Shown one piece after another: positions 15,267-39,050 of a stretch of 64,000 nt of DNA. Within the stretch, counting starts at the first letter, position 1; every line of letters starts with the position of its first letter. The stretch covers positions 36,425-100,424 of the IMG/VR virus record IMGVR_UViG_3300046474_000274. One strand, given 5' to 3'. Under the pieces are notes generated by a model. It was not told where the DNA came from. It did no database searches and was given only the letters and a program-made list of their open reading frames with translations. The translations under genes were made by a program, and so were the position numbers. The stretch is from a virus. Taxonomy: Duplodnaviria; Heunggongvirae; Uroviricota; Caudoviricetes.

Positions 15267-15340
15267 GCCGGGGTAGCTTAGGGCAGAGCAGCGACTTTCA
15301 GAGGTCGCAGGTCGAGGTTCGACTCCTTGCCCCGGAGCCA
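15267..15340 (+). tRNA. atypical tRNA-like gene: cloverleaf with a G1:A72 mismatch and an 8-nt anticodon loop UUUCAGAG (UCA if read as a 7-nt loop)
   Basis: T-arm CGAGG-TTCGACT-CCTTG; acceptor GCCGGGG/CCCCGGA with encoded CCA; D-arm TAGCTTAGGGCAGAGC; anticodon stem GCGAC/GTCGC. Confidence 0.45.
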
Positions 15341-20160: not shown

Positions 20161-20340
20161 ATGACGGCCTGGCTCACATGCGTAATCGGCATAGTCGCCA
20201 CCCTTCTCTTGATTTTCGCCTGGCTGACGCACGTCGTCGTCTGCATCGCGACCGCCTCCTGGATGCTGCTGTTTGTCGGCGCCATCGGCTTCCCGATCGG
20301 CATCGTCCACGGCCTCATGATCTGGTTCGGCGCCATTTAA
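20161..20340 (+). CDS. small membrane protein (59 aa, two predicted TM helices)
   Basis: ATG 12 nt after the promoter palindrome; hydrophobic throughout; below the ORF-track cutoff. Confidence 0.5.
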   Translation: MTAWLTCVIGIVATLLLIFAWLTHVVVCIATASWMLLFVGAIGFPIGIVHGLMIWFGAI

Positions 20341-20349
20341 GGAATTCAC

Positions 20350-21039
20350 ATGCCCCTGATCGTTCACAAGCACACCGAAATCATGAGCCCGACGCCGGCT
20401 CCCGTCACGCGCGGCCAGTATATGCACTCCGCAAACGGCCGGAAGATCTATCCGTTCGACCCGCGTCCGGAGGAAATCAACATCGGCGTCGTCGCCCATC
20501 ACCTGGCGACCAACAATCGCTGGAATGGCGCCACGCAGCACAAGCGGTTCAGGACTCGGATCTCGTATTCGGTCGCGGAGCACTCGGTCTACTGCGCCCG
20601 CTACATTCGCGAGGTATTGCAGCGGCCGGACCTCGAACTTGAGGCGCTGCTCCACGACGGGCCGGAATACATCACCGGCGACCTGATCCGGCCGCTCAAG
20701 CATTCGCCGCAGATCCACCCGATCTATTCCCAGGTCGAGGATAAGATCGAGCAGGCGTTCGCCAAGCGTTTCGGATTGCTCTATCCGCTCCCGAAGGAAG
20801 TGAAGATGGCTGACGAAGCCGTCTGCGCCGCGGAGTCGATCCAGATCGTGCCGAAGGATCCCTGCGAAGAATGGCAGTCGGGCAAGATGCACGACGACAG
20901 CAAGGTAGCTCCTTACGAAATTCAGATGCTGGATGCCTTCCCCGCGAAGGAATTCTTCCTGATGGAATATGAAGACGCCATTCGTCGCCGGCCGAATTAC
21001 GCTGATCTCCCGTCTTCTGTTGAGCTATATTCTAAGTAA
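20350..21039 (+). CDS. HD-domain phosphohydrolase (YfbR-like 5'-deoxynucleotidase family)
   Basis: ORF track; H...HD...D pattern (VAHHLA and LLHDGPEYITGD). Confidence 0.75.
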   Translation: MPLIVHKHTEIMSPTPAPVTRGQYMHSANGRKIYPFDPRPEEINIGVVAHHLATNNRWNGATQHKRFRTRISYSVAEHSVYCARYIREVLQRPDLELEALLHDGPEYITGDLIRPLKHSPQIHPIYSQVEDKIEQAFAKRFGLLYPLPKEVKMADEAVCAAESIQIVPKDPCEEWQSGKMHDDSKVAPYEIQMLDAFPAKEFFLMEYEDAIRRRPNYADLPSSVELYSK

Positions 21040-24225: not shown

Positions 24226-24678
24226 ATGTGGATCAACGTCTCCGACAAAGAAGCCGACCTCATCAGTTACGCGCTGAGTTCCTATTTCGCCGCGACCGGT
24301 GAAGAAGCCTGCTTCGATCTGAGGGAGAGGCTCTCGCGGCGCAAGAAAGCCTTCACCGCTGATCCTACCTGCTGCATCGACCAGATGGCCGGCGAGCTGG
24401 TCTACGGCGAAGAAGGCGGCGACTTCCAGGCTGCCGCCTTCGAGAAGCTCGACAGCCTCACCAACGGCTCCATCCACTACGACCAGGACACGATCATCGC
24501 CAGGGATGGAGCAGGTGGCGCCTACGTCATGGGCTGGATCCACATTTCAGACCTCCCGGACGATGAAGACGCCTGCCGCGAGTGCGGCGAGCACTACGCG
24601 GATGGTGGCGACGGTTACAACGGGCGCTGCCCCGACTGCGCCGATAAAGCAGAACAGGAAGGACGTTCCGATGACTGA
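24226..24678 (+). CDS. hypothetical protein with a C-terminal Zn-binding CxxC pair
   Basis: In frame with ORF 23989..24678; GAGGAAA RBS. Confidence 0.55.
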   Translation: MWINVSDKEADLISYALSSYFAATGEEACFDLRERLSRRKKAFTADPTCCIDQMAGELVYGEEGGDFQAAAFEKLDSLTNGSIHYDQDTIIARDGAGGAYVMGWIHISDLPDDEDACRECGEHYADGGDGYNGRCPDCADKAEQEGRSDD

Positions 24679-25024
24679 GATTTTCGTATTCGGCTCAAAC
24701 CTGGCCGGCCGTCACGGCGCAGGTGCCGCACTCTACGCGCTCCAGCACAAGGGCGCGATTTACGGCCAGGGCGTCGGGCTGCAGGGTGAATCCTATGGCA
24801 TCCCGACCAAGGACACTCTCATTCGCACCCTGCCGCTGCCGTATATCGACCAGGCGATCGACGACTTCATGACGTTCGCCAAGTCCCGGCCGGACCTCAC
24901 CTTCGACGTGACGCCGATCGGCTGCGGTCTGGCCGGCTATAAGCGCGAGCAGATCCGTCCTCTCTTCGAGGGTATGCCGGATAACTGCCGCTTCAACCCG
25001 AGCTGGGATGAGCATGTTGGCTAA
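24671..25024 (+). CDS. small Rossmann-like protein, possibly SLOG/LOG-DprA-like (motif FVFGSNLAGRHGAGAA)
   Basis: In frame with ORF 24506..25024; AGGAAGGA RBS. Confidence 0.45.
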   Translation: MTEIFVFGSNLAGRHGAGAALYALQHKGAIYGQGVGLQGESYGIPTKDTLIRTLPLPYIDQAIDDFMTFAKSRPDLTFDVTPIGCGLAGYKREQIRPLFEGMPDNCRFNPSWDEHVG

Positions 25025-25370
25025 GATGCGCGCACTCCTCCCCTATCAGAAGCACGCTGAGGACTTCTTCGGCATCACCAATCCCGACCGGGGCTTCTTC
25101 ATCAACGTCTATCTCCGGGAGGTCGGCACGCCTGGCGAGCATCTGGAACCGGGCAATCTCTGGGCGAACCGGAGGGAAGCTGCTGTCAACGGTCGCGCCC
25201 AGGTCAAGGGAAGCAGTGACAAGATCGCCTACCGCATTCGCGTGAAACCGAAGGGTCCGATCCCGAGGCGCCCGCCGCCCGAGCCATTCCCGTCTCGCGG
25301 GTTTTATCAGCCTTTCTATTTTCACGGGCCTTGCATGTGCCAGTCCCGTTCCATGAGGAGTTTTAGATGA
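25008..25370 (+). CDS. hypothetical protein
   Basis: ORF track 25008..25370. Confidence 0.4.
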   Translation: MSMLAKMRALLPYQKHAEDFFGITNPDRGFFINVYLREVGTPGEHLEPGNLWANRREAAVNGRAQVKGSSDKIAYRIRVKPKGPIPRRPPPEPFPSRGFYQPFYFHGPCMCQSRSMRSFR

Positions 25371-26800
25371 GCAACATCACCGGCAAGACGCTTGTTTCCT
25401 GGGGTCTGCAGCCTGGCGCCTGGTTTAAGGAGGCTCTGCCGATCGCCCGCGAAATGCGCGCCACTGGCAAGAGCGACAAGGAGATCATCCAGGCCCTGTT
25501 CCCGATGCAGGCAGCCAAGGCGATCGATGAAGGCGTGCCGCTGCGCACTAACAACATTCCATTCGGCCAGTTCATCGAGCCGGAAGGTGACGACGAGAAG
25601 GCGAATGTCGCCTCGGTTCTCGCTCATATGGACGCGCTGATGCGTGTTCCGACGATCGAGAAGGGTGCAGTCATGCCGGATGCGTGCCCTTCCGGCTCGG
25701 CGCTCGGCACCATCCCTGTCGGTGGTGTGGTCGCGACCAAGAACGCGATCCATCCGGGCTTCCACTCCGCGGACATCTGCTGCTCGATGGCGATCTCCGT
25801 CTTCAAGCGCGACACGCCTGTAGATTACGTCCTCGACATTGCGATGAAGGCGTCTCACTTCGGCGTCGGCAAGCGCACGGCATCGGAAGCGCGCCAGTAT
25901 AAGGATCTGGTGCAGTTGGTGGGCGGCTTCGATGCGAACCCCTTCCTGAAGGGCCTCGAGGATTACGCCATTCACCACTTCATGACGCAGGGCGACGGCA
26001 ATCACTTCTTCTATGTCGGGCAGCTCGAAAGCACCGGGCAGATGGCGATCGTCACGCACCACGGCTCGCGCGGTCTGGGCGGCCAGCTCTACAAGCGCGG
26101 CAAGGCAGCAGCCGAGCGTCACACGCGCATCGTCGCAGGGCGGATCCCGCTGCACAACGCATGGATCGAGGCAGATAGCCAGGTCGGCCAGGATTACTGG
26201 CAGGCGCTGCAGGCAATCCGCCTGTGGACGAAGATGAACCACTTCGCGATCCACAACATCGTCGCCAAGCGCCTCGGCAATCAGATCATCGGGCAGTTCT
26301 GGAACGAACACAACTTCGTCTTCCAGCGCTCCGACGGGCTGTTCTATCACGCCAAGGGCGCAACGCCGTCGTTCAAGGGCTTTGCGAAGGACGACCAGGG
26401 TCTGACGCTGATCCCGATGAACATGGCGCAGCCGATCCTGATCGCCGAGCACGCCGAGAATGAAGATGCCCTTGGCTTTGCACCGCACGGCGCCGGCCGC
26501 AATCTCTCCCGCACCGGGCACATCAAGCGGCTGATGGCAGAGTTCGGCGACACGCGCGGTCTGGGGCCGAATGCGATCAAGGCGATCATGGAGCGCGAGA
26601 CCAAGGGCCTCGATGTCCGCTTTTACACCGGCGACCCTGACGTTTCCGAGCTGCCGAGCGCCTACAAGAACGCGGACCAGGTCCAGGCTCAGATCGAGAA
26701 GTTCGGTCTCGCCAAGATCGCCGATCGCATTCTGCCGCGTGGCTCGATCATGGCCGGCGAAATGAAGTGGCACAAGCCCAAGAAGCCGAAGGCCGAATAA
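25367..26800 (+). CDS. rtcB: RtcB RNA 3'-phosphate/2',3'-cyclic-phosphate ligase
   Basis: ORF track; RtcB motifs GDGNHFFYVG, HHGSRGLG, NHNFV and APHGAGR; GGAG RBS. Confidence 0.9.
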   Translation: MSNITGKTLVSWGLQPGAWFKEALPIAREMRATGKSDKEIIQALFPMQAAKAIDEGVPLRTNNIPFGQFIEPEGDDEKANVASVLAHMDALMRVPTIEKGAVMPDACPSGSALGTIPVGGVVATKNAIHPGFHSADICCSMAISVFKRDTPVDYVLDIAMKASHFGVGKRTASEARQYKDLVQLVGGFDANPFLKGLEDYAIHHFMTQGDGNHFFYVGQLESTGQMAIVTHHGSRGLGGQLYKRGKAAAERHTRIVAGRIPLHNAWIEADSQVGQDYWQALQAIRLWTKMNHFAIHNIVAKRLGNQIIGQFWNEHNFVFQRSDGLFYHAKGATPSFKGFAKDDQGLTLIPMNMAQPILIAEHAENEDALGFAPHGAGRNLSRTGHIKRLMAEFGDTRGLGPNAIKAIMERETKGLDVRFYTGDPDVSELPSAYKNADQVQAQIEKFGLAKIADRILPRGSIMAGEMKWHKPKKPKAE

Positions 26801-28483: not shown

Positions 28484-28556
28484 TACATGGGAGCGCTCAT
28501 CACCTGGGCGCTCCCAATCTCGTTTGCGCTATAAGATAAGTAAGCAATTACTTTAG
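28484..28556 (+). promoter_or_regulatory. hairpin GGGAGCGC-tcatcacctg-GGCGCTCCC followed by GCGCTATAAGATAAGTAAGCAATTACTTTAG
   Basis: Family member. Confidence 0.65.
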
Positions 28557-28566
28557 CGAGGACGAA

Positions 28567-28755
28567 ATGAGCGAAACGCAGCGCATCGTAGGTCACGTCA
28601 CCAACGCCCGCTTTCTCACCATCGGCTCCGACAAGCAGGTGCTCGCCGGCACGCTGGACGGCAAGACCTTCTATTCCGAGCCGATCATCGAGCTCGACGG
28701 CAACATTATCCGGACTGCCAACGGCAGCTTCCGCTACAGCAGGAGCATTCACTGA
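28567..28755 (+). CDS. hypothetical protein
   Basis: ORF track; promoter cassette upstream. Confidence 0.5.
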   Translation: MSETQRIVGHVTNARFLTIGSDKQVLAGTLDGKTFYSEPIIELDGNIIRTANGSFRYSRSIH

Positions 28756-29792
28756 TGCGGGATTTCCACTACGGCATCTACATCGGCCGCTTTCAGCCGC
28801 TGCACATCGGTCATGAGCAGGTCATTCGCCAGGCGCTTGAGCGCTGCGAGACCCTGATCGTCATCGTCGGCTCGAGCCACATGGCGCGCAACCCGGTCAA
28901 TCCGTTCATCTTCGAGGAGCGCGAGGCGATGCTGCGCGCTGCCTTTCATCACGAGATGGCATCGGGCCGCATGATCGTCCTGCCCCTCTACGACTACGAG
29001 CATGACTACGACTGGTCGACCAACCTCAAGAAGGGCGTCACCGAAGCCATTCTCGATCACGCCAATAAGGGCGGCATCCGCCTGCACGGCACTCGCGACT
29101 TCAAGATCGCGCTCACCGGCTACGGCAAGGACTCCTCGTCCTACTATCTCGATATGTTCCCCGAGTGGGATAACATCCAGATCGATACGCAGCACGGCAC
29201 GATCAACGCGTCCGATATCCGCTACGATTATTTCCGTCGGCTCCCGCGCATGCCGCACGATGCCGTGTCGCCGAAGATCCTCACCTTTCTCAAGGAATTC
29301 TCGCTCACCGAGCCGTTCAAGGATCTCGTCGCCTACAAGGACGCGCTGTCCCGCGACAACATCGATTATGGTCAGGGTCCGTTTCTCGCGGCAGATGTGC
29401 TGATCACCTGGCGCGGCAAGATCCTGCTGATCACGCGCGGCAAGGATGTTGGCAAGGGCACGCTCGCCATGCCGGGCGGCTTCGTCGAGAAGGGTGAGCG
29501 CTTCCTGGACGCCGCGATCCGCGAGCTGAAGGAAGAAGCAAACATCGACGGCCAGGATATCGCCGACTACCTCGCCGGCCACACGCTGGCCGACAACCCG
29601 AAGCGCTCGCTGCGGGGCCGGATCGTGTCGATGGTCTTCCACTTTGACATTCCCGCCGAGGTCGAGGTCACGACGCCGAAGGGCGGCGACGATGCCTCGC
29701 ACGCCGATTGGTATGACTTCGAGAGCCTCGGCACCGAGCGCTTCTACGAAGATCACCACACCCTCATCACCAACATTCTTACTGGGGAGTAA
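28755..29792 (+). CDS. nadM: bifunctional NMN adenylyltransferase / Nudix hydrolase (NadM-like)
   Basis: ORF track; HxGH-type motif GRFQPLHIGH; C-terminal Nudix box GGFVEKGERFLDAAIRELKEEANI. Confidence 0.85.
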   Translation: MRDFHYGIYIGRFQPLHIGHEQVIRQALERCETLIVIVGSSHMARNPVNPFIFEEREAMLRAAFHHEMASGRMIVLPLYDYEHDYDWSTNLKKGVTEAILDHANKGGIRLHGTRDFKIALTGYGKDSSSYYLDMFPEWDNIQIDTQHGTINASDIRYDYFRRLPRMPHDAVSPKILTFLKEFSLTEPFKDLVAYKDALSRDNIDYGQGPFLAADVLITWRGKILLITRGKDVGKGTLAMPGGFVEKGERFLDAAIRELKEEANIDGQDIADYLAGHTLADNPKRSLRGRIVSMVFHFDIPAEVEVTTPKGGDDASHADWYDFESLGTERFYEDHHTLITNILTGE

Positions 29793-29794
29793 CC

Positions 29795-31246
29795 ATGAGG
29801 AACATCATCCTCTCGACCGACAGCTACAAGCACTCGCACTTCCTGCAGTATCCGCCCGGTGCGCAGTCCGTCTCCTCCTACATCGAGGCGCGCCGCGGCT
29901 CCGACAAGAAGCAGGTCTCGCTCTTCTTCGGCCTGCAGGCATTCCTGCTCGAATACCTGTCCGAATCCTTCACGCACGATGACGTGGAAGAAGCCGAGGA
30001 GCTCTGCAAGGTTCACGGCCTGCCGTTCAACCGCGAAGGCTGGGACTACATCCTCAAGGAACACCACGGCTACCTGCCGATCGAGATCCAGGCACTGCCG
30101 GAAGGCACGCTTGTTCCGCGCGGCACGCCGCTGATCCAGGTCAGGAACACCGACCCGAAGGTTCCGTGGCTGACGAGCTTCATCGAGACGGCGCTGCTGC
30201 GGGCCATCTGGTATCCGACTTCGGTCGCGACCCTGTCCTTCATCACCAAGGCGATCATCTACGACGCCCTGAAGCGCACGTCGGACAATCCGGACGCTCA
30301 GATCCCGTTCAAGCTGCACGACTTCGGCGCCCGCGGCGTCTCCTCCGGCGAGAGCGCCATGCTCGGCGGGATGGCGCACCTGGTCAACTTCAAGGGCACT
30401 GACACGCTCGAAGCCATCCAGGGCGCGATGCACTACTATCATGCTGCCTCGATGCCGGGCTTCTCCATCCCTGCATCCGAACATTCGACCATGACGAGCT
30501 GGGGCAAGGATCGCGAGTCCGCTGCCTACGCCAACATGATCGAGCGGTTCGGCGACGGGCTCTTCTCGATTGTCTCCGACAGCTACGACCTGTTCAACGC
30601 GGTCGAAAGCATCTTCGGCGACGAGCTGAAGGAGAAGATCCTCAACATCAAGGGCAAGCTGATCATCCGGCCGGACTCGGGCGACCCGATCTCGACGCCG
30701 ATCGCCGTCATCAGGAAGCTCTGGGAGATCTTCGGCGGGACCGTCAACTCGAAGGGCTACAAGGTGCTCAACGAGAAGATCGCCGTCATCCAGGGCGACG
30801 GCATGAACGGTTCCTCGATCGCCCATCTCGTGACCTCGCTGGTCGCTGAAGGCTTCTCCATCGACAATATCGCCTTCGGTATGGGCGGCGGACTGCTGCA
30901 GGGTCACATGCGCGACGACATGCGCTTCGCCATGAAGGCCAATGCGATCGACTTCGGCGATGGCTGGGTCGATGTCCAGAAGAAGCCCGCGACGGATCCC
31001 TTGAAGGCGTCGAAGGCAGGTCGCCAGGCTGTCATCAGTATCGACGGCGAGCTCGAAAGCGTCCGCGAGGATGCTCTGGAACAGCTCACCGGTGAAGTGA
31101 ACCTCCTCGAGGTCGTCTGGTCGAACGGTCAGATGGTGCGCGAGCACACCTGGGAAGAGGTCACGGAGCGCGCCCACAAGGAGCTCCAGAACTTCACCGA
31201 CACGGTGATGAAGCGCTCCGAGGAACAGGCGGAAGCGGCTGAATAA
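29795..31246 (+). CDS. nadV: nicotinamide phosphoribosyltransferase (NAMPT/NadV)
   Basis: ORF track; N-terminus ILSTDSYKHSH is typical of NAMPT; 483 aa. Confidence 0.9.
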   Translation: MRNIILSTDSYKHSHFLQYPPGAQSVSSYIEARRGSDKKQVSLFFGLQAFLLEYLSESFTHDDVEEAEELCKVHGLPFNREGWDYILKEHHGYLPIEIQALPEGTLVPRGTPLIQVRNTDPKVPWLTSFIETALLRAIWYPTSVATLSFITKAIIYDALKRTSDNPDAQIPFKLHDFGARGVSSGESAMLGGMAHLVNFKGTDTLEAIQGAMHYYHAASMPGFSIPASEHSTMTSWGKDRESAAYANMIERFGDGLFSIVSDSYDLFNAVESIFGDELKEKILNIKGKLIIRPDSGDPISTPIAVIRKLWEIFGGTVNSKGYKVLNEKIAVIQGDGMNGSSIAHLVTSLVAEGFSIDNIAFGMGGGLLQGHMRDDMRFAMKANAIDFGDGWVDVQKKPATDPLKASKAGRQAVISIDGELESVREDALEQLTGEVNLLEVVWSNGQMVREHTWEEVTERAHKELQNFTDTVMKRSEEQAEAAE

Positions 31247-31278: not shown

Positions 31279-31305
31279 CAGCGATATAAGTAACTCATTA
31301 CTTAG
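31279..31305 (+). promoter_or_regulatory. promoter cassette copy (CAGCGATATAAGTAACTCATTACTTAG)
   Basis: Family member. Confidence 0.55.
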
Positions 31306-31586: not shown

Positions 31587-32435
31587 ATGAACCTTTTCAA
31601 GCTCATCCCGGCAGCGATTGTCGGTTTCATCGTCCTCGCTGCCGGCACTGGCTCTTTCTACCAGATCGACCAGGGCGAAGTCGGCGTCGTTCTGACCAAC
31701 GGGCGTGTGTCCTCGATCTCTGAAGCCGGTCTGCACTTCAAGACGCCGTTTGTCGATGAAGTCCGCTACATCTCCACGCAGACGCAGGCGCTGGAGTTCA
31801 AGGACGAATCCGCGTTCTCGACCGATCGTCAGGAAGTTCACGTTTCCTTCTCGATCAACTACACGCCGATCCCGTCTCAGGCCGGTGTTATCTACAGCCG
31901 CTACGGCTCGCTCGCCGTATTCGAACAGCGCGACCTGGTTCGCAAGGCACGTCAGGAGATGAAGGTCGTCGTTGGTCGCTACTCGATCGACGAGGCGATC
32001 AAGAACCGGGCAAAGCTGATTTCCGAGATCACCGGCTCCGTCACCAATCTTGGCGATGATATCGTGAAGATCGACAGCCTGCAGGTCGAAGATATCGTCT
32101 TCTCCAAGGTCGTTCTCGATGCTGCCGAAAAGCGCACCGTCGCCGAAATGCTCGTCAATACGAAGGAGCAGCAGCGCCTGGTCGCCGAGAAGGAAGCCTC
32201 GATCCAGGTGATCCAGGCTCAGGCACAGGCTGACAGTAACCTCAAGATTGCAACCGCTCAGGCTGACGCTGTGAAGCTGCAGGGCGAAGCCGAGGCTGCT
32301 GCGCTGCGTGCCAAGAACGACGCGATCAAGGAGTCTCCGAACTTGGTTGAGCTGACGAAGGCTCAGAAGTGGGATGGCAAGTTGCCGACCTCGTTCATTC
32401 CGGGCTCTGCAACGCCGTTCCTCAACATCAAGTAA
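31587..32435 (+). CDS. SPFH/band-7 (stomatin/prohibitin/HflK-like) membrane protein
   Basis: ORF track; N-terminal TM helix; SPFH core QIDQGEVGVVLTNGR...KTPFVDEV; C-terminal coiled coil. Confidence 0.85.
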   Translation: MNLFKLIPAAIVGFIVLAAGTGSFYQIDQGEVGVVLTNGRVSSISEAGLHFKTPFVDEVRYISTQTQALEFKDESAFSTDRQEVHVSFSINYTPIPSQAGVIYSRYGSLAVFEQRDLVRKARQEMKVVVGRYSIDEAIKNRAKLISEITGSVTNLGDDIVKIDSLQVEDIVFSKVVLDAAEKRTVAEMLVNTKEQQRLVAEKEASIQVIQAQAQADSNLKIATAQADAVKLQGEAEAAALRAKNDAIKESPNLVELTKAQKWDGKLPTSFIPGSATPFLNIK

Positions 32436-32486: not shown

Positions 32487-32508
32487 GTTAGAGGCTATGG
32501 AGAGACAC

Positions 32509-33087
32509 ATGAGCACCAACTACAAGACCGCAGCCGCCCGGATCGAAGAAGCCCTCAAGGGCGCTGACGGCCTGGACAACTGGCATAAGTATGGCGAGGG
32601 CTATGGCTCGCTCCGCTCCGACATGGAAAAGCTGGCGAAGGATCTCGCCGGCAGCTACGACAACCCCGCCACCGTGGTCGTGCCGCTGGTCGAGGTCAAT
32701 GGTGGACTGCTGCTCGTGCGGCGCAAGCTCGCCGACGGCTATGGCAAGCTGGCGCTACCGGGCGGCTATCAGGCACTCGGCGAGACCTGGGAAGAAGCCG
32801 GCGCGCGTGAGGTGCTTGAGGAGACCGGCGTCGCGATCCGCCCGAGCGATCTGACGATCGTTGGTGTCGATACGGTCGAGGGTGGAAAGGTCAATCTGAT
32901 CTTCTGCCAGGCGATGTTCAAGGTCGCGGCTGACCTGAAGCCGCAGGAGGATGAGGTGATCGAGGTCGTCATCGCCGAGCGGGCGCCGGATCCCGCGGAA
33001 GTCGCCTTCCCGGCTCATTGGGCGCGTATCAACGCCTGGTTTATGATGGGTCGGGATCTGCTCTTCCCTACCGACAACCACGACTGA
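32509..33087 (+). CDS. Nudix hydrolase
   Basis: In frame with ORF 32497..33087; Nudix box GGYQALGETWEEAGAREVLEETG. Confidence 0.8.
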   Translation: MSTNYKTAAARIEEALKGADGLDNWHKYGEGYGSLRSDMEKLAKDLAGSYDNPATVVVPLVEVNGGLLLVRRKLADGYGKLALPGGYQALGETWEEAGAREVLEETGVAIRPSDLTIVGVDTVEGGKVNLIFCQAMFKVAADLKPQEDEVIEVVIAERAPDPAEVAFPAHWARINAWFMMGRDLLFPTDNHD

Positions 33088-38495: not shown

Positions 38496-39050
38496 ATGAA
38501 CCGTTATTCCGTGCATGGCGAGAACATGATCGCCAAGGCCGACCTGTTCGCCTTCGCCGCGCATACCGCGATCGGCCAGGTCCGCAAATACACTAACGAG
38601 CCCTATATTGATCATCCGCGCGCAGTCGCCGATATGGTGAGGGCTCTGCCGGATCACACCTGGCAGCAGGTCGTCCTGGCGCTGATCCACGACACGGTCG
38701 AGGATACGAAGATCGAGATGAGCCACGTCCGGGCGGTATTCGGCGAGGAGATCGCCGACGGGCTCTATTATCTGACCAATGTCGAACCCAGCGCCGGCAA
38801 TCGTGCGCGCCGGCATTACCTCAACTGCGAGCGGCTGCGGAACTCGCCCGCCCGTGTGGCGACGGTCAAGTGCCTCGACATCTTCCACAACACCGCGCGG
38901 ATCGCCGAGCTCGATCCGACTTTCGCGCCACAGTATCTGCGTGAGAAGGCCGAGGCGCTGGAGTCGCTGCGTCACGCCGACAATATCGTCTGGCGCATGA
39001 CCTGGGAGCAGATTGCCAACGCCGCACTTGCCGTAGGGGCCGCCTCATGA
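38496..39050 (+). CDS. SpoT/RelA-type HD-domain hydrolase (small alarmone hydrolase-like)
   Basis: ORF track; EPYIDHPRAVA...LIHDTVEDT aligns with the SpoT HD region EPYITHPVAVA...LLHDVIEDT. Confidence 0.75.
   Translation: MNRYSVHGENMIAKADLFAFAAHTAIGQVRKYTNEPYIDHPRAVADMVRALPDHTWQQVVLALIHDTVEDTKIEMSHVRAVFGEEIADGLYYLTNVEPSAGNRARRHYLNCERLRNSPARVATVKCLDIFHNTARIAELDPTFAPQYLREKAEALESLRHADNIVWRMTWEQIANAALAVGAAS

What the first reader, a model, noticed from the sequence alone, without database searches (positions are those of the whole stretch)
28755..31246. NAD+ salvage pair (NadM-like NMNAT-Nudix plus NAMPT/NadV) next to RtcB, a second Nudix and SPFH
The NadM-like product at 28755..29792 has the HxGH adenylyltransferase motif and a C-terminal Nudix box; 29795..31246 is NAMPT/NadV. 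Together they rebuild NAD+ from nicotinamide. This two-enzyme route matches the described phage NAD+ reconstitution pathway that counters NAD-depleting immunity such as TIR, SIR2 and SEFIR effectors. The Nudix half could additionally process ADP-ribose into substrates. Its placement alongside RtcB, Nudix (32509..33087), SPFH and an alarmone-hydrolase homologue makes 24.6-33.1 kb look like a consolidated counter-defence island.
Basis: established knowledge. Interest (0 to 1): 0.6.

Follow-up and report, generated by a model that had tools for sequence, protein, structure and literature searches.

The report
Phage NAD+ salvage operon (NARP2-type)
A Rhizobium phage-plasmid carries a tightly coupled two-enzyme operon that should rebuild NAD+ from nicotinamide, an ordinary new example of a known phage pathway (NARP2) that defeats NAD-depleting bacterial immunity; the surrounding "counter-defence island" is only loosely supported.

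Summary
ORFs at 28755..29792 (NMNAT + Nudix, NadM/NatV type) and 29795..31246 (NAMPT/NadV) exist exactly as stated. Both align full-length to solved, characterised enzymes, and every catalytic motif checked is intact. The window is collinear with ~120-kb Rhizobium siphophages/phage-plasmids (B1VFA, V1VFA-S, RHph_X66), where the pair is already annotated.

The pair fits NARP2. The Nampt is of the KVP40/cellular type, an Nmnat partner is present, and no Prs-like Adps was found. NadV directly follows NadM in 22 of 23 viral loci sampled.

Here the pair forms its own unit with a lineage-specific 62-aa ORF. A hairpin and a recurrent promoter-like palindrome bracket that unit.

The "consolidated island" is only partly supported:
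- RtcB, DUF8224, SPFH and the second Nudix lie in separate units.
- They accompany NadM only within this phage lineage, and vary even there.
- The alarmone-hydrolase homologue (HD_4) is at 38496..39050, outside the stated span.
- The gene at 24.6 kb is a DarG/TARG1-like macrodomain.

Activity and anti-defence function remain untested. Verdict: a new member of a known kind, of low-to-moderate interest.

The parts
28488..28516 (+). Terminator-like hairpin (12-bp stem, 8 G-C pairs) just after the DUF8224 stop codon. It marks the upstream boundary of the NAD unit.
   Evidence: pattern scan; the T-tract is weak, so termination is inferred; sequence
28524..28553 (+). Promoter-like palindromic element GCGCTATAAGATAAGTAAGCAATTACTT. 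It ends 13 nt before the orf62 ATG.
   Evidence: 18 sites in the window against 0.07 expected by chance; conserved at the homologous place in B1VFA (L002 13374) and X66 (L001 8783). Promoter function is inferred.
28567..28755 (+). orf62, a 62-aa protein of unknown function. Its TGA stop overlaps the NadM ATG (TGATG), so it is translationally coupled to NadM.
   Evidence: It is 92-95% identical in B1VFA/X66. It abuts NadM in all same-lineage viral loci and is absent from distant NadM loci. Only about 6 small clusters exist among 1.84 billion representatives. No Pfam or PHROG hit.
28755..29792 (+). NadM/NatV-type bifunctional NMN adenylyltransferase (N-terminal half) + Nudix hydrolase (C-terminal half, probably ADP-ribose pyrophosphatase).
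28785..28814 (+). GRFQPLHIGH: the HxGH nucleotidyltransferase motif (H17, H20).
   Evidence: (invariant in 17 homologues)
29478..29546 (+). Nudix box G242..I264 (Gx5Ex7REUxEExGU, with N in place of the last G).
29795..31246 (+). NadV, nicotinamide phosphoribosyltransferase (NAMPT). Its ATG lies 2 nt after the NadM stop, and its GGGGAG ribosome-binding site lies inside the NadM 3' end.
   Evidence: Residues aligned to human Y18, F193, R196, D219, H247, R311, D313, G353-D354, G383-G384 and R392 are all conserved (query Y11, F177, R180, D203, H230, R292, D294, G334-D335, G364-G365, R373).
31287..31303 (+). Next copy of the palindromic promoter-like element. It marks the downstream boundary of the NAD unit and the start of the small-ORF/SPFH/Nudix2 unit.
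24671..25024 (+). Context, not part of the module: a compact macrodomain protein (A1S_2505 family), DarG/TARG1-like fold.
25367..26800 (+). Context: RtcB-family RNA ligase.
   Evidence: Pfam RtcB 90.7 bits; phrog_1075 321 bits
26862..28478 (+). Context: DUF8224 (PF26675) protein of unknown function.
31587..32435 (+). Context: SPFH/Band 7 (prohibitin-like) membrane protein.
32497..33087 (+). Context: stand-alone Nudix hydrolase with a perfect Nudix box (residues 89-112). Its substrate is unknown.
38496..39050 (+). Context: RelA/SpoT-type HD domain protein (HD_4).
   Evidence: homologous to B1VFA_037

Best explanation
orf62-NadM-NadV (28567..31246) is a self-contained, translationally coupled phage operon for two-step NAD+ salvage of the NARP2 type.

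Proposed mechanism:
1. NadV condenses nicotinamide with host PRPP to give NMN.
2. The N-terminal half of NadM adenylylates NMN with ATP to give NAD+.
3. The C-terminal Nudix half most likely splits ADP-ribose into AMP and ribose-5-phosphate. Host Prs can turn the ribose-5-phosphate back into PRPP. Both products of an immune NADase (nicotinamide and ADPR) could then be recycled.

Expressed during infection, the operon would keep NAD+ available. In particular it would blunt NAD+-depleting defences (TIR, SIR2 and SEFIR effectors).

Shown here: gene structure, homology, intact catalytic motifs, phage origin, operon organisation, and conserved NadM-NadV linkage across phages.
Shown by others for KVP40 homologues only: enzyme activities and defeat of Thoeris/DSR2.
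Inferred: activity of these particular proteins, the ADPR to PRPP loop, expression timing, and that counter-defence rather than a general NAD+ boost is the selected role.

I put enzymatic NAD+ salvage at about 0.9 and counter-defence as the main selected benefit at about 0.55.
For: - ORFs and domains.
- NadM aligns full-length to the solved NMNAT/ADPR-pyrophosphatases 2qjo and 2qjt, with HxGH, NASDIR and the Nudix box intact and invariant among 17 homologues.
- NadV scores 593 bits against the 405 cut-off of NF006629, 447 bits to Xanthomonas NAMPT and 375 bits to human NAMPT. All active-site residues checked are conserved.
- NadV is 42.8% identical to the Nampt of a KVP40-like vibriophage (~253 kb; its record carries no taxonomy line). 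It is only 27.6% identical to a NARP1-type Namat from a Felixounavirus whose gene sits next to a Prs-like Adps.
- No Adps/Prs homologue is found in the window or in the whole B1VFA genome.
- The genome is a phage: collinear with B1VFA, with terminase, portal, capsid and tape-measure genes.
- NadV lies immediately downstream of NadM in 22 of 23 IMG/VR loci, down to 29% NadM identity.
- The stop/start overlap, the 2-nt spacer, and the flanking hairpin and promoter-like elements define a single unit.
- Literature: NARP2 = KVP40 Nampt + Nmnat. It abolished type I Thoeris and DSR2 defence and raised NAD+ (10.1101/2024.02.11.579819). NatV has the same NMNAT+Nudix architecture (PMC13464706). Every NadM-bearing phage also has NadV (PMC9503650).
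Against: - No experiment exists for this phage or its close relatives.
- NadM scores below every clade-specific NCBIfam equivalog cut-off (best 240 bits against 397), so it is a divergent member.
- NARP2 raises NAD+ even without any defence system. A general metabolic benefit therefore cannot be separated from counter-defence by sequence alone.
- The phage's own DNA ligases are ATP-dependent. No phage-encoded NAD+-requiring step was found that would make NAD+ supply specially critical.
- The lineage is probably temperate (phage-plasmid). Unregulated NARP2 is reported to be costly or toxic.
- The substrate of the Nudix half is inferred from homologues. Iyer et al. instead suggest it trims NAD+ levels.
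Confidence: 0.7

Rival explanations
1. General auxiliary metabolism. The operon simply enlarges the NAD+ pool to support host-run energy and nucleotide metabolism during replication of a large (~120 kb) genome, whether or not any defence system fires.
For: - NARP2 increased NAD+ in cells lacking a defence system.
- The pair was first described as a plain salvage pathway in KVP40 (cited).
- NadM/NadV are concentrated in medium and jumbo phages with many metabolic genes.
- The window also carries class Ia RNR and dUTPase homologues.
- A cellular nadM-nadV pair in the same order on Novosphingobium replicons (~68% nt identity) suggests capture of an ordinary metabolic operon.
Against: - The same enzymes demonstrably defeat Thoeris and DSR2.
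- The phage's own ligases do not need NAD+.
- A macrodomain and a second Nudix nearby point to ADP-ribose-related conflict rather than bulk metabolism.
- This reading and the counter-defence reading are not mutually exclusive.
Confidence: 0.3
2. One reading: 24.6-33.1 kb is one consolidated counter-defence island. In it the macrodomain/'alarmone hydrolase', RtcB, the NAD pair, SPFH and Nudix act as a co-selected anti-immunity cassette.
For: - Several members have plausible anti-defence roles. RtcB could reseal tRNAs cut by anticodon nucleases (inference). A DarG/TARG1-like macrodomain could remove ADP-ribose marks or bind ADPR signals. NARP2 is validated elsewhere.
- Macro and NADAR domains are reported near NadM/NadV in some phages (PMC9503650).
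- The units carry the same regulatory element, so they are probably co-timed.
- Gene content varies within the lineage, as in accessory hot spots.
Against: - The alarmone-hydrolase homologue is at 38496..39050, not in the span.
- The span comprises three separate units, and the shared element also precedes RNR, tRNA and other genes across the window.
- Outside this lineage, none of the neighbours accompanies NadM-NadV in 18 viral loci, apart from one HD_4 hit and one weak SPFH hit.
- RtcB is absent from 3 of 5 same-lineage loci.
- DUF8224 and SPFH have no known defence-related role.
- PADLOC gives nothing relevant.
Confidence: 0.15
3. Lysogenic/plasmid-state function. Because the lineage persists as a ~118-kb plasmid, the operon is expressed in the carrier cell. 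There it gives the host a nicotinamide salvage route, or protects the resident element from the host's own NAD+-depleting abortive systems.
For: - The operon lies on 117-119 kb plasmid records from Rhizobium beringeri, Sinorhizobium sp. LM21 and Shinella zoogloeoides.
- B1VFA carries parA, parB and repC and has been proposed to be a prophage-plasmid (PMC12509600).
Against: - The operon sits in a long same-strand array of replication and nucleotide-metabolism genes. All are led by the same promoter-like element, which looks like a lytic early/middle programme.
- NARP2 expression is reported as burdensome.
- There are no expression data.
Confidence: 0.1
4. The genes are decaying relics with no activity.
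For: NadV has diverged faster than NadM between close relatives (71% against 93% aa identity to B1VFA).
Against: - The NadV substitutions avoid the catalytic segments. All motifs are intact and the reading frames are full-length.
- Gene order and coupling are conserved over a wide range of phages.
Confidence: 0.03

Closest known systems
NARP2 of Vibrio phage KVP40 (Nampt/NadV + Nmnat/NatV; Lee et al. 2017; Osterman et al., bioRxiv 10.1101/2024.02.11.579819)
   Same: - The same two enzyme families and the same NMNAT+Nudix fusion.
- No Adps partner.
- Phage-encoded.
- Predicted reactions: nicotinamide + PRPP -> NMN -> NAD+.
   Different: - Sequence identity is only ~33% (NadM vs the NatV-like protein of Schizotequatrovirus VH7D) and ~43-46% (NadV vs the KVP40-like vibriophage K575).
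- Here the genes are adjacent and translationally coupled and are preceded by a lineage-specific 62-aa ORF. In VH7D, NadM has no NadV neighbour.
- The carrier is a ~120-kb alphaproteobacterial siphophage/phage-plasmid, not a T4-like myovirus.
- Activity is untested here.
Annotated nadM/nadV genes of Rhizobium phages B1VFA (B1VFA_020/021), V1VFA-S and RHph_X66
   Same: - Orthologous genes in the same order and context.
- NadM is 91-93% and NadV ~71% identical at the protein level, and the whole 64-kb window is collinear.
   Different: - A distinct genome: 68-88% nt identity.
- No 'RNA ligase 2'-like gene.
- It carries the second Nudix as in B1VFA, which X66 lacks.
- The published genome note does not discuss the NAD genes.
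Cellular NadM-Nudix / NadV salvage (Synechocystis slr0787, PDB 2qjo; Francisella NadM, PDB 2qjt; Xanthomonas NAMPT, PDB 7yqo; sphingomonad nadM-nadV)
   Same: - Full-length homology and the same motifs.
- Chromosomal sphingomonad NadM is the nearest non-phage relative (~48% aa).
- A nadM-nadV pair in the same order lies on Novosphingobium replicons at ~68% nt identity.
   Different: Encoded by a virus, under a phage-specific promoter-like element, with the extra orf62.
NARP1 (Adps + Namat) and NARP3 (PnuC + NadR-like)
   Same: - The same end product, and the same proposed purpose of rebuilding NAD+ during infection.
- Namat is a distant homologue of NadV.
   Different: - No Adps, PnuC or NadR-type kinase domain is present.
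- NadV is an orthodox NAMPT (27.6% to a Namat-type protein), so PRPP rather than ADPR-PP is the expected co-substrate.

Membership tests
NARP2 (phage NAD+ reconstitution pathway 2) | A phage-encoded Nampt of the KVP40/cellular NAMPT clade, not the Namat clade | tested here: met
   - NF006629 scores 593 bits against a cut-off of 405.
- 447 bits to bacterial NAMPT and 375 bits to human NAMPT.
- 42.8% identity to a KVP40-like Nampt against 27.6% to a Felixounavirus Namat-type protein.
- No formal phylogeny was built.
NARP2 (phage NAD+ reconstitution pathway 2) | An Nmnat encoded in the same phage genome | tested here: met
   NadM-Nudix lies immediately upstream of NadV with a 2-nt spacer. The same linkage is seen in 22 of 23 viral loci.
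NARP2 (phage NAD+ reconstitution pathway 2) | No Prs-like Adps partner (which would make it NARP1) | tested here: met
   tblastn with a Felixounavirus Adps finds nothing in the window or the complete B1VFA genome. No such annotation exists in B1VFA. About half of this window's own genome was not available.
NARP2 (phage NAD+ reconstitution pathway 2) | The carrier is a phage | tested here: met
   Collinear with cultured siphophages that have terminase, portal, capsid and tape-measure genes.
NARP2 (phage NAD+ reconstitution pathway 2) | Enzymatic conversion of nicotinamide + PRPP + ATP to NAD+ | not testable with these tools
   Only inferred, from intact catalytic residues.
NARP2 (phage NAD+ reconstitution pathway 2) | Restores NAD+ and phage growth in the face of NAD+-depleting defence (Thoeris, DSR, SIR2-HerA, SEFIR) | not testable with these tools
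   Shown only for the KVP40 genes.
NadM-Nudix bifunctional NMNAT/ADPR pyrophosphatase | N-terminal archaeal-type NMNAT with GRFQPxHxGH and a second (S/N)xxxxR motif | tested here: met
   GRFQPLHIGH at residues 11-20 and NASDIR at 151-156, aligned to the same motifs in 2qjo and 2qjt.
NadM-Nudix bifunctional NMNAT/ADPR pyrophosphatase | C-terminal Nudix domain with a catalytic Nudix box | tested here: met
   Pfam NUDIX scores 63.1 bits against a cut-off of 21.1. The box spans residues 242-264 with REUxEE intact; the last G is N.
NadM-Nudix bifunctional NMNAT/ADPR pyrophosphatase | Score above a curated NCBIfam PRK05379 equivalog cut-off | tested here: inconclusive
   The best score is 240 bits against a cut-off of 397. 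The alignment is full-length (residues 2-342 of the protein to positions 12-352 of 354). The seven sub-models are clade-specific. The protein is a divergent, phage-lineage member rather than a non-member.
NadM-Nudix bifunctional NMNAT/ADPR pyrophosphatase | ADP-ribose as the Nudix substrate | not testable with these tools
   Inferred from homologues only.
NARP1 (Adps + Namat) | A Prs-like ADPR-pyrophosphate synthetase adjacent to a Namat | tested here: not met
Conserved counter-defence island | The same set of neighbours accompanies the NAD pair in unrelated phages | tested here: not met
   RtcB, DUF8224, the macrodomain and SPFH appear only in same-lineage loci L008-L012, apart from one weak (28%) SPFH hit in L025. 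RtcB is in 2 of those 5.
Conserved counter-defence island | One transcription unit or shared dedicated regulation | tested here: not met
   Three units are separated by a hairpin and by a palindromic element that is genome-wide, with 18 sites. These are predictions, not transcript data.
Small alarmone hydrolase (RelA/SpoT-type HD) within 24.6-33.1 kb | An HD-domain protein in the stated span | tested here: not met
   No HD hit for any ORF in the span. HD_4 is at 38496..39050 (32.1 bits against a cut-off of 27.2). A YfbR-like HD is at 20350..21039.
Macrodomain (DarG/TARG1-like) for 24671..25024 | Macrodomain fold | tested here: met
   [not shown]
Macrodomain (DarG/TARG1-like) for 24671..25024 | A catalytic lysine equivalent to DarG K80 / TARG1 K84 | not tested
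   K47 is invariant in 26 homologues. No residue-level superposition was available.

The most novel reading that the evidence does not exclude
This lineage may carry a regulated, three-gene variant of NARP2 adapted to a temperate phage-plasmid.
- The lineage-specific 62-aa protein, translationally coupled to NadM, would control or partner the otherwise costly Nampt/Nmnat pair.
- The NadM Nudix half, and perhaps the nearby DarG-like macrodomain and the second Nudix, would feed ADP-ribose back through ribose-5-phosphate and PRPP.
- The element would then recycle both NADase products. In the plasmid state it could even disarm the host's NAD+-depleting abortive-infection systems.
Probability: 0.12. 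Interest if true: 0.5.

Novelty: new member of a known kind. Interest (0 to 1): 0.25.

Why it matters
If active, the operon extends the validated NARP2 counter-defence strategy beyond large T4-like and jumbo myoviruses. It would place it in a soil alphaproteobacterial siphophage lineage that also lives as a plasmid. That would suggest NAD+-depleting immunity is a relevant selective force in rhizobia.

There is practical value too. The pair is a compact, naturally coupled NadM-NadV cassette from a high-GC phage with culturable close relatives (B1VFA, RHph_X66), so it can be tested directly.

The finding does not open a new question. The pathway, its enzymes and its anti-defence role are already described, and the genes are already annotated in the relatives.

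Tried and rejected
1. Ro60/Rsr idea for the 538-aa neighbour. One bacterial locus has rtcR | DUF8224-rtcA-rtcB, with DUF8224 in the slot of Rsr. I rejected the idea for three reasons:
   - Rfam finds no Y-RNA-like RNA in the window.
   - Only 1 of 80 bacterial DUF8224 loci has Rtc genes nearby.
2. 84% nt but 71% aa identity of NadV to its relatives looked odd. The alignment shows evenly spread substitutions that spare the catalytic segments, so there is no frameshift or mosaic junction.
3. A phage NAD+-dependent DNA ligase would have been a reason to need NAD+. Both B1VFA ligases are ATP-dependent.
4. Could the neighbours be parts of known defence systems, given the plasmid lifestyle? PADLOC gives only a generic Nudix similarity.
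5. Sigma-70 promoter scan around the operon: nothing above chance. The phage-specific palindrome was found by eye instead.
6. Direct retrieval of KVP40 nadV/natV failed. The 15-45 kb stretch fetched does not contain them, and the Lee et al. 2017 paper is not held. I used proxies instead: VH7D, which its record places in KVP40's genus, for NadM, and K575 for NadV. K575 is only KVP40-like by host and genome size, because its record has no taxonomy line.
The viral library returned only uncharacterised proteins.


Full report
**1. The observation**

The first ORF:
- It has a cytidylyltransferase-like domain at residues 8-65 and a NUDIX domain at residues 211-336.
- It aligns over its full length to the NCBIfam models for bifunctional NMN adenylyltransferase/Nudix hydrolase, although below their clade-specific cut-offs (best 240 bits against 397).
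- It aligns at residues 4-341 to the solved NadM-Nudix enzymes of Synechocystis (2qjo, 160 bits) and Francisella (2qjt).
- The HxGH motif is GRFQPLH17IGH20, the second NMNAT motif is NASDIR (151-156), and the Nudix box runs from G242 to I264. Its REUxEE glutamates are intact and only the final glycine is replaced by asparagine.
- All of these positions are invariant in an alignment of 17 homologues.

The second ORF:
- It has the NAMPT N-terminal domain plus the NAPRTase barrel.
- It passes the NCBIfam equivalog cut-off (593 bits against 405).
- It scores 447 bits to Xanthomonas NAMPT (7yqo) and 375 bits to human NAMPT.
- Residues aligned to human Y18, F193, R196, D219, H247, R311, D313, G353-D354, G383-G384 and R392 are all conserved. 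The roles of those residues rest on established knowledge of NAMPT structures, not on a test made here.

- RtcB at 25367..26800.
- SPFH at 31587..32435.
- A Nudix protein at 32497..33087 with a perfect Nudix box.

**2. What genome this is**

- The pair matches three Rhizobium phages (RHph_X66, B1VFA, V1VFA-S) at about 84% nucleotide identity. There it is already annotated as NadM-family NMNAT/ADP-ribose pyrophosphatase plus nicotinamide phosphoribosyltransferase.
- The whole 64-kb window is collinear with B1VFA at 68-88% identity.
- These are ~120-kb siphophages with terminase, portal, capsid and tape-measure genes. They also carry parA, parB and repC, and have been proposed to be prophage-plasmids (PMC12509600).
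- Consistently, the operon also lies on 117-119 kb plasmid records from Rhizobium beringeri, Sinorhizobium sp. LM21 and Shinella zoogloeoides.
- Against B1VFA, NadM is 93% identical at the protein level and NadV 71%. The NadV substitutions are spread evenly and avoid the catalytic segments.

**3. Anatomy of the unit**

- A 62-aa ORF (28567..28755) ends in a TGA that overlaps the NadM ATG.
- NadV starts 2 nt after the NadM stop, and its GGGGAG ribosome-binding site lies inside NadM.
- Upstream, a 12-bp-stem hairpin (28488..28516) follows the stop codon of the preceding gene.
- Next comes a conserved element, GCGCTATAAG-N-TAAGTAAG-N3-TTACTT, which ends 13 nt before the orf62 ATG. The same element recurs just after NadV at 31287.
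- This palindrome occurs at 18 sites in the window against 0.07 expected by chance. It usually ends about 20 nt before the ATG of the next + strand gene, and it is conserved at the homologous places in B1VFA and X66.
- I read it as a phage-specific promoter and/or leader signal. This is an inference, because there are no transcript data.

1. 23901 -> two small ORFs, a macrodomain gene, orf120, RtcB and DUF8224, closed by the hairpin.
2. 28537 -> orf62, NadM and NadV.
3. 31287 -> two small ORFs, SPFH and the second Nudix.

**4. Is the pair a module, and is the neighbourhood one?**

I fetched 23 IMG/VR loci that encode a NadM relative, with NadM identity from 29% to 93%. I then searched them with the window's proteins.

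- NadV lies immediately downstream of NadM on the same strand in 22 of the 23 loci.
- RtcB, DUF8224, the macrodomain gene and SPFH occur only in the five loci of the window's own lineage, apart from one weak (28%) SPFH hit in a distant locus.
- Within that lineage, RtcB is missing from three of the five loci and DUF8224 is replaced by a 23-26% relative.
- The apparent 'second Nudix' hits are all to NadM's own Nudix domain.
- The stand-alone Nudix is present in B1VFA (75% identity) but absent from RHph_X66 and from the closest IMG/VR relative.
- orf62 abuts NadM in the same-lineage loci but not in the distant ones. Its family is tiny, about six clusters among 1.84 billion representatives.
- NadM-Nudix occurs in 460 of 50,697 phage records (0.9%). 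The wider Nampt/Namat family occurs in 2,020. This is in line with the published figure of about 1.1% for NARP2.

**5. Comparison with the known pathways**

- Osterman et al. define NARP2 as the KVP40 Nampt plus Nmnat. The two genes abolished type I Thoeris and DSR2 defence and raised NAD+. The Nampt prefers PRPP, 94% of phages with this Nampt also encode Nmnat, and no phage had both NARP1 and NARP2.
- KVP40 NatV has the same NMNAT+Nudix architecture.
- Iyer et al. note that every NadM phage has NadV, and that macro and NADAR domains sometimes sit nearby.
- Here NadV is 42.8% identical to the Nampt of the KVP40-like vibriophage K575. It is only 27.6% identical to the 593-aa Namat-type protein of a Felixounavirus, whose gene sits next to a Prs-like Adps.
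- NadM is 33% identical to the NatV-like protein of VH7D, a Schizotequatrovirus like KVP40.
- The Adps probe finds nothing in the window or in the complete B1VFA genome.

The pair therefore meets every sequence-level criterion for NARP2 and fails the criterion for NARP1. Enzyme activity and anti-defence effect could not be tested.

The nearest non-phage relatives of NadM are chromosomal sphingomonad enzymes at about 48% identity. A nadM-nadV pair in the same order lies on Novosphingobium replicons at about 68% nucleotide identity. This suggests capture of a cellular operon.

**6. The neighbours**

- *HD-domain genes.* The RelA/SpoT-type HD gene (HD_4) is at 38496..39050, and a YfbR-like HD gene is at 20350..21039.
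- *The 538-aa protein between RtcB and NadM.* It is DUF8224, a large and well-conserved family.
  - It occurs in phage and prophage replication modules, and in one rtcR-controlled operon with rtcA and rtcB.
  - Only 1 of 80 sampled bacterial loci has Rtc genes nearby, and none has NadM or NadV.
- *The second Nudix.* Its nearest solved relatives give no substrate call.
- *PADLOC.* It finds nothing relevant in any of these proteins.

**7. Judgement**

The pair is a genuine, intact NARP2-type NAD+ salvage operon in a Rhizobium phage-plasmid.

The most likely mechanism is nicotinamide + PRPP -> NMN (NadV), then NMN + ATP -> NAD+ (NadM). The Nudix half probably converts ADP-ribose to AMP and ribose-5-phosphate, which host Prs can return to PRPP.

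Whether its selected role is counter-defence or a general NAD+ boost cannot be settled by sequence:
- NARP2 raises NAD+ even without a defence system.
- The phage's own ligases are ATP-dependent.

The 'consolidated island' is better described as lineage-specific synteny inside a long array of early or accessory genes that share one regulatory signal. Some of those genes (macrodomain, RtcB, Nudix) are plausible but unproven counter-defence factors.

The finding is correct in substance and adds a new host range and lifestyle for a known pathway. It is not a new kind of system.

Noticed in passing
window 3429, 7786, 8904, 11937, 14599, 16101, 20127, 21033, 23901, 28537, 31287, 35993, 37650, 41961, 47675, 57885, 61310, 63192: A recurrent AT-rich palindromic element (consensus about GCGCTATAAG-N-TAAGTAAG-N3-TTACTT) in a 60% GC genome. 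There are 18 sites against 0.07 expected. It usually ends ~20 nt before the ATG of the next + strand gene, and it is conserved in B1VFA and X66. Candidate phage promoter plus leader hairpin or operator.
   Followed up: partly
[not shown]
   Followed up: partly
[not shown]
   Followed up: partly
window 28567..28755 (+): A 62-aa ORF is translationally coupled to NadM and conserved at 92-95% in close relatives. It is restricted to this phage lineage and matches no known domain. It may be a third component or a regulator of the NAD operon.
   Followed up: partly
whole window; plasmid records NZ_CP140813.1, NZ_KM659098.1, NZ_CP132310.1: The lineage exists as 117-119 kb plasmids in Rhizobium, Sinorhizobium and Shinella isolates. 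Its cultured members carry parA, parB and repC. It is therefore a phage-plasmid carrying NARP2-type genes, which is unusual for a pathway mostly seen in large lytic myoviruses.
   Followed up: partly
window 25367..26800 vs L010, L001, L002: RtcB is 93-95% identical to the copies in RHph_X66 and in IMG/VR locus L010, although NadM in L010 is only 69% identical. RtcB is absent from 3 of 5 same-lineage loci. It looks like a recently exchanged cassette.
   Followed up: no
window 20325..20349: The 'RNA ligase 2'-like gene of RHph_X66 (equivalent to B1VFA_006) has no counterpart in this window. It appears to be deleted between the homologues of B1VFA_004 and the HD phosphohydrolase.
   Followed up: yes
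window 15267..15340 (+): ARAGORN reports a tRNA of undetermined identity with a four-base anticodon (tcag). Rfam scores it as tRNA at 45 bits. It is either a frameshift-suppressor-like tRNA or a degenerate one. The other tRNAs are Cys-GCA (15969), Met-CAT (57938) and Trp-CCA (58030); the last is annotated as a pseudo-tRNA in B1VFA.
   Followed up: no
window 38496..39050 and 20350..21039 (+): Two HD-domain phosphohydrolases: one of RelA/SpoT type (HD_4, a possible (p)ppGpp or alarmone hydrolase) and one YfbR-like 5'-deoxynucleotidase type.
   Followed up: no
window 28755..31246 vs Novosphingobium replicons NZ_CP063447.1, NZ_CP028348.1: A cellular nadM-nadV pair in the same order shares ~68% nucleotide identity with the phage operon, and chromosomal sphingomonad NadM is ~48% identical at the protein level. 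This points to capture of an alphaproteobacterial operon. NadV evolves much faster than NadM within the phage lineage (71% against 93% aa).
   Followed up: no
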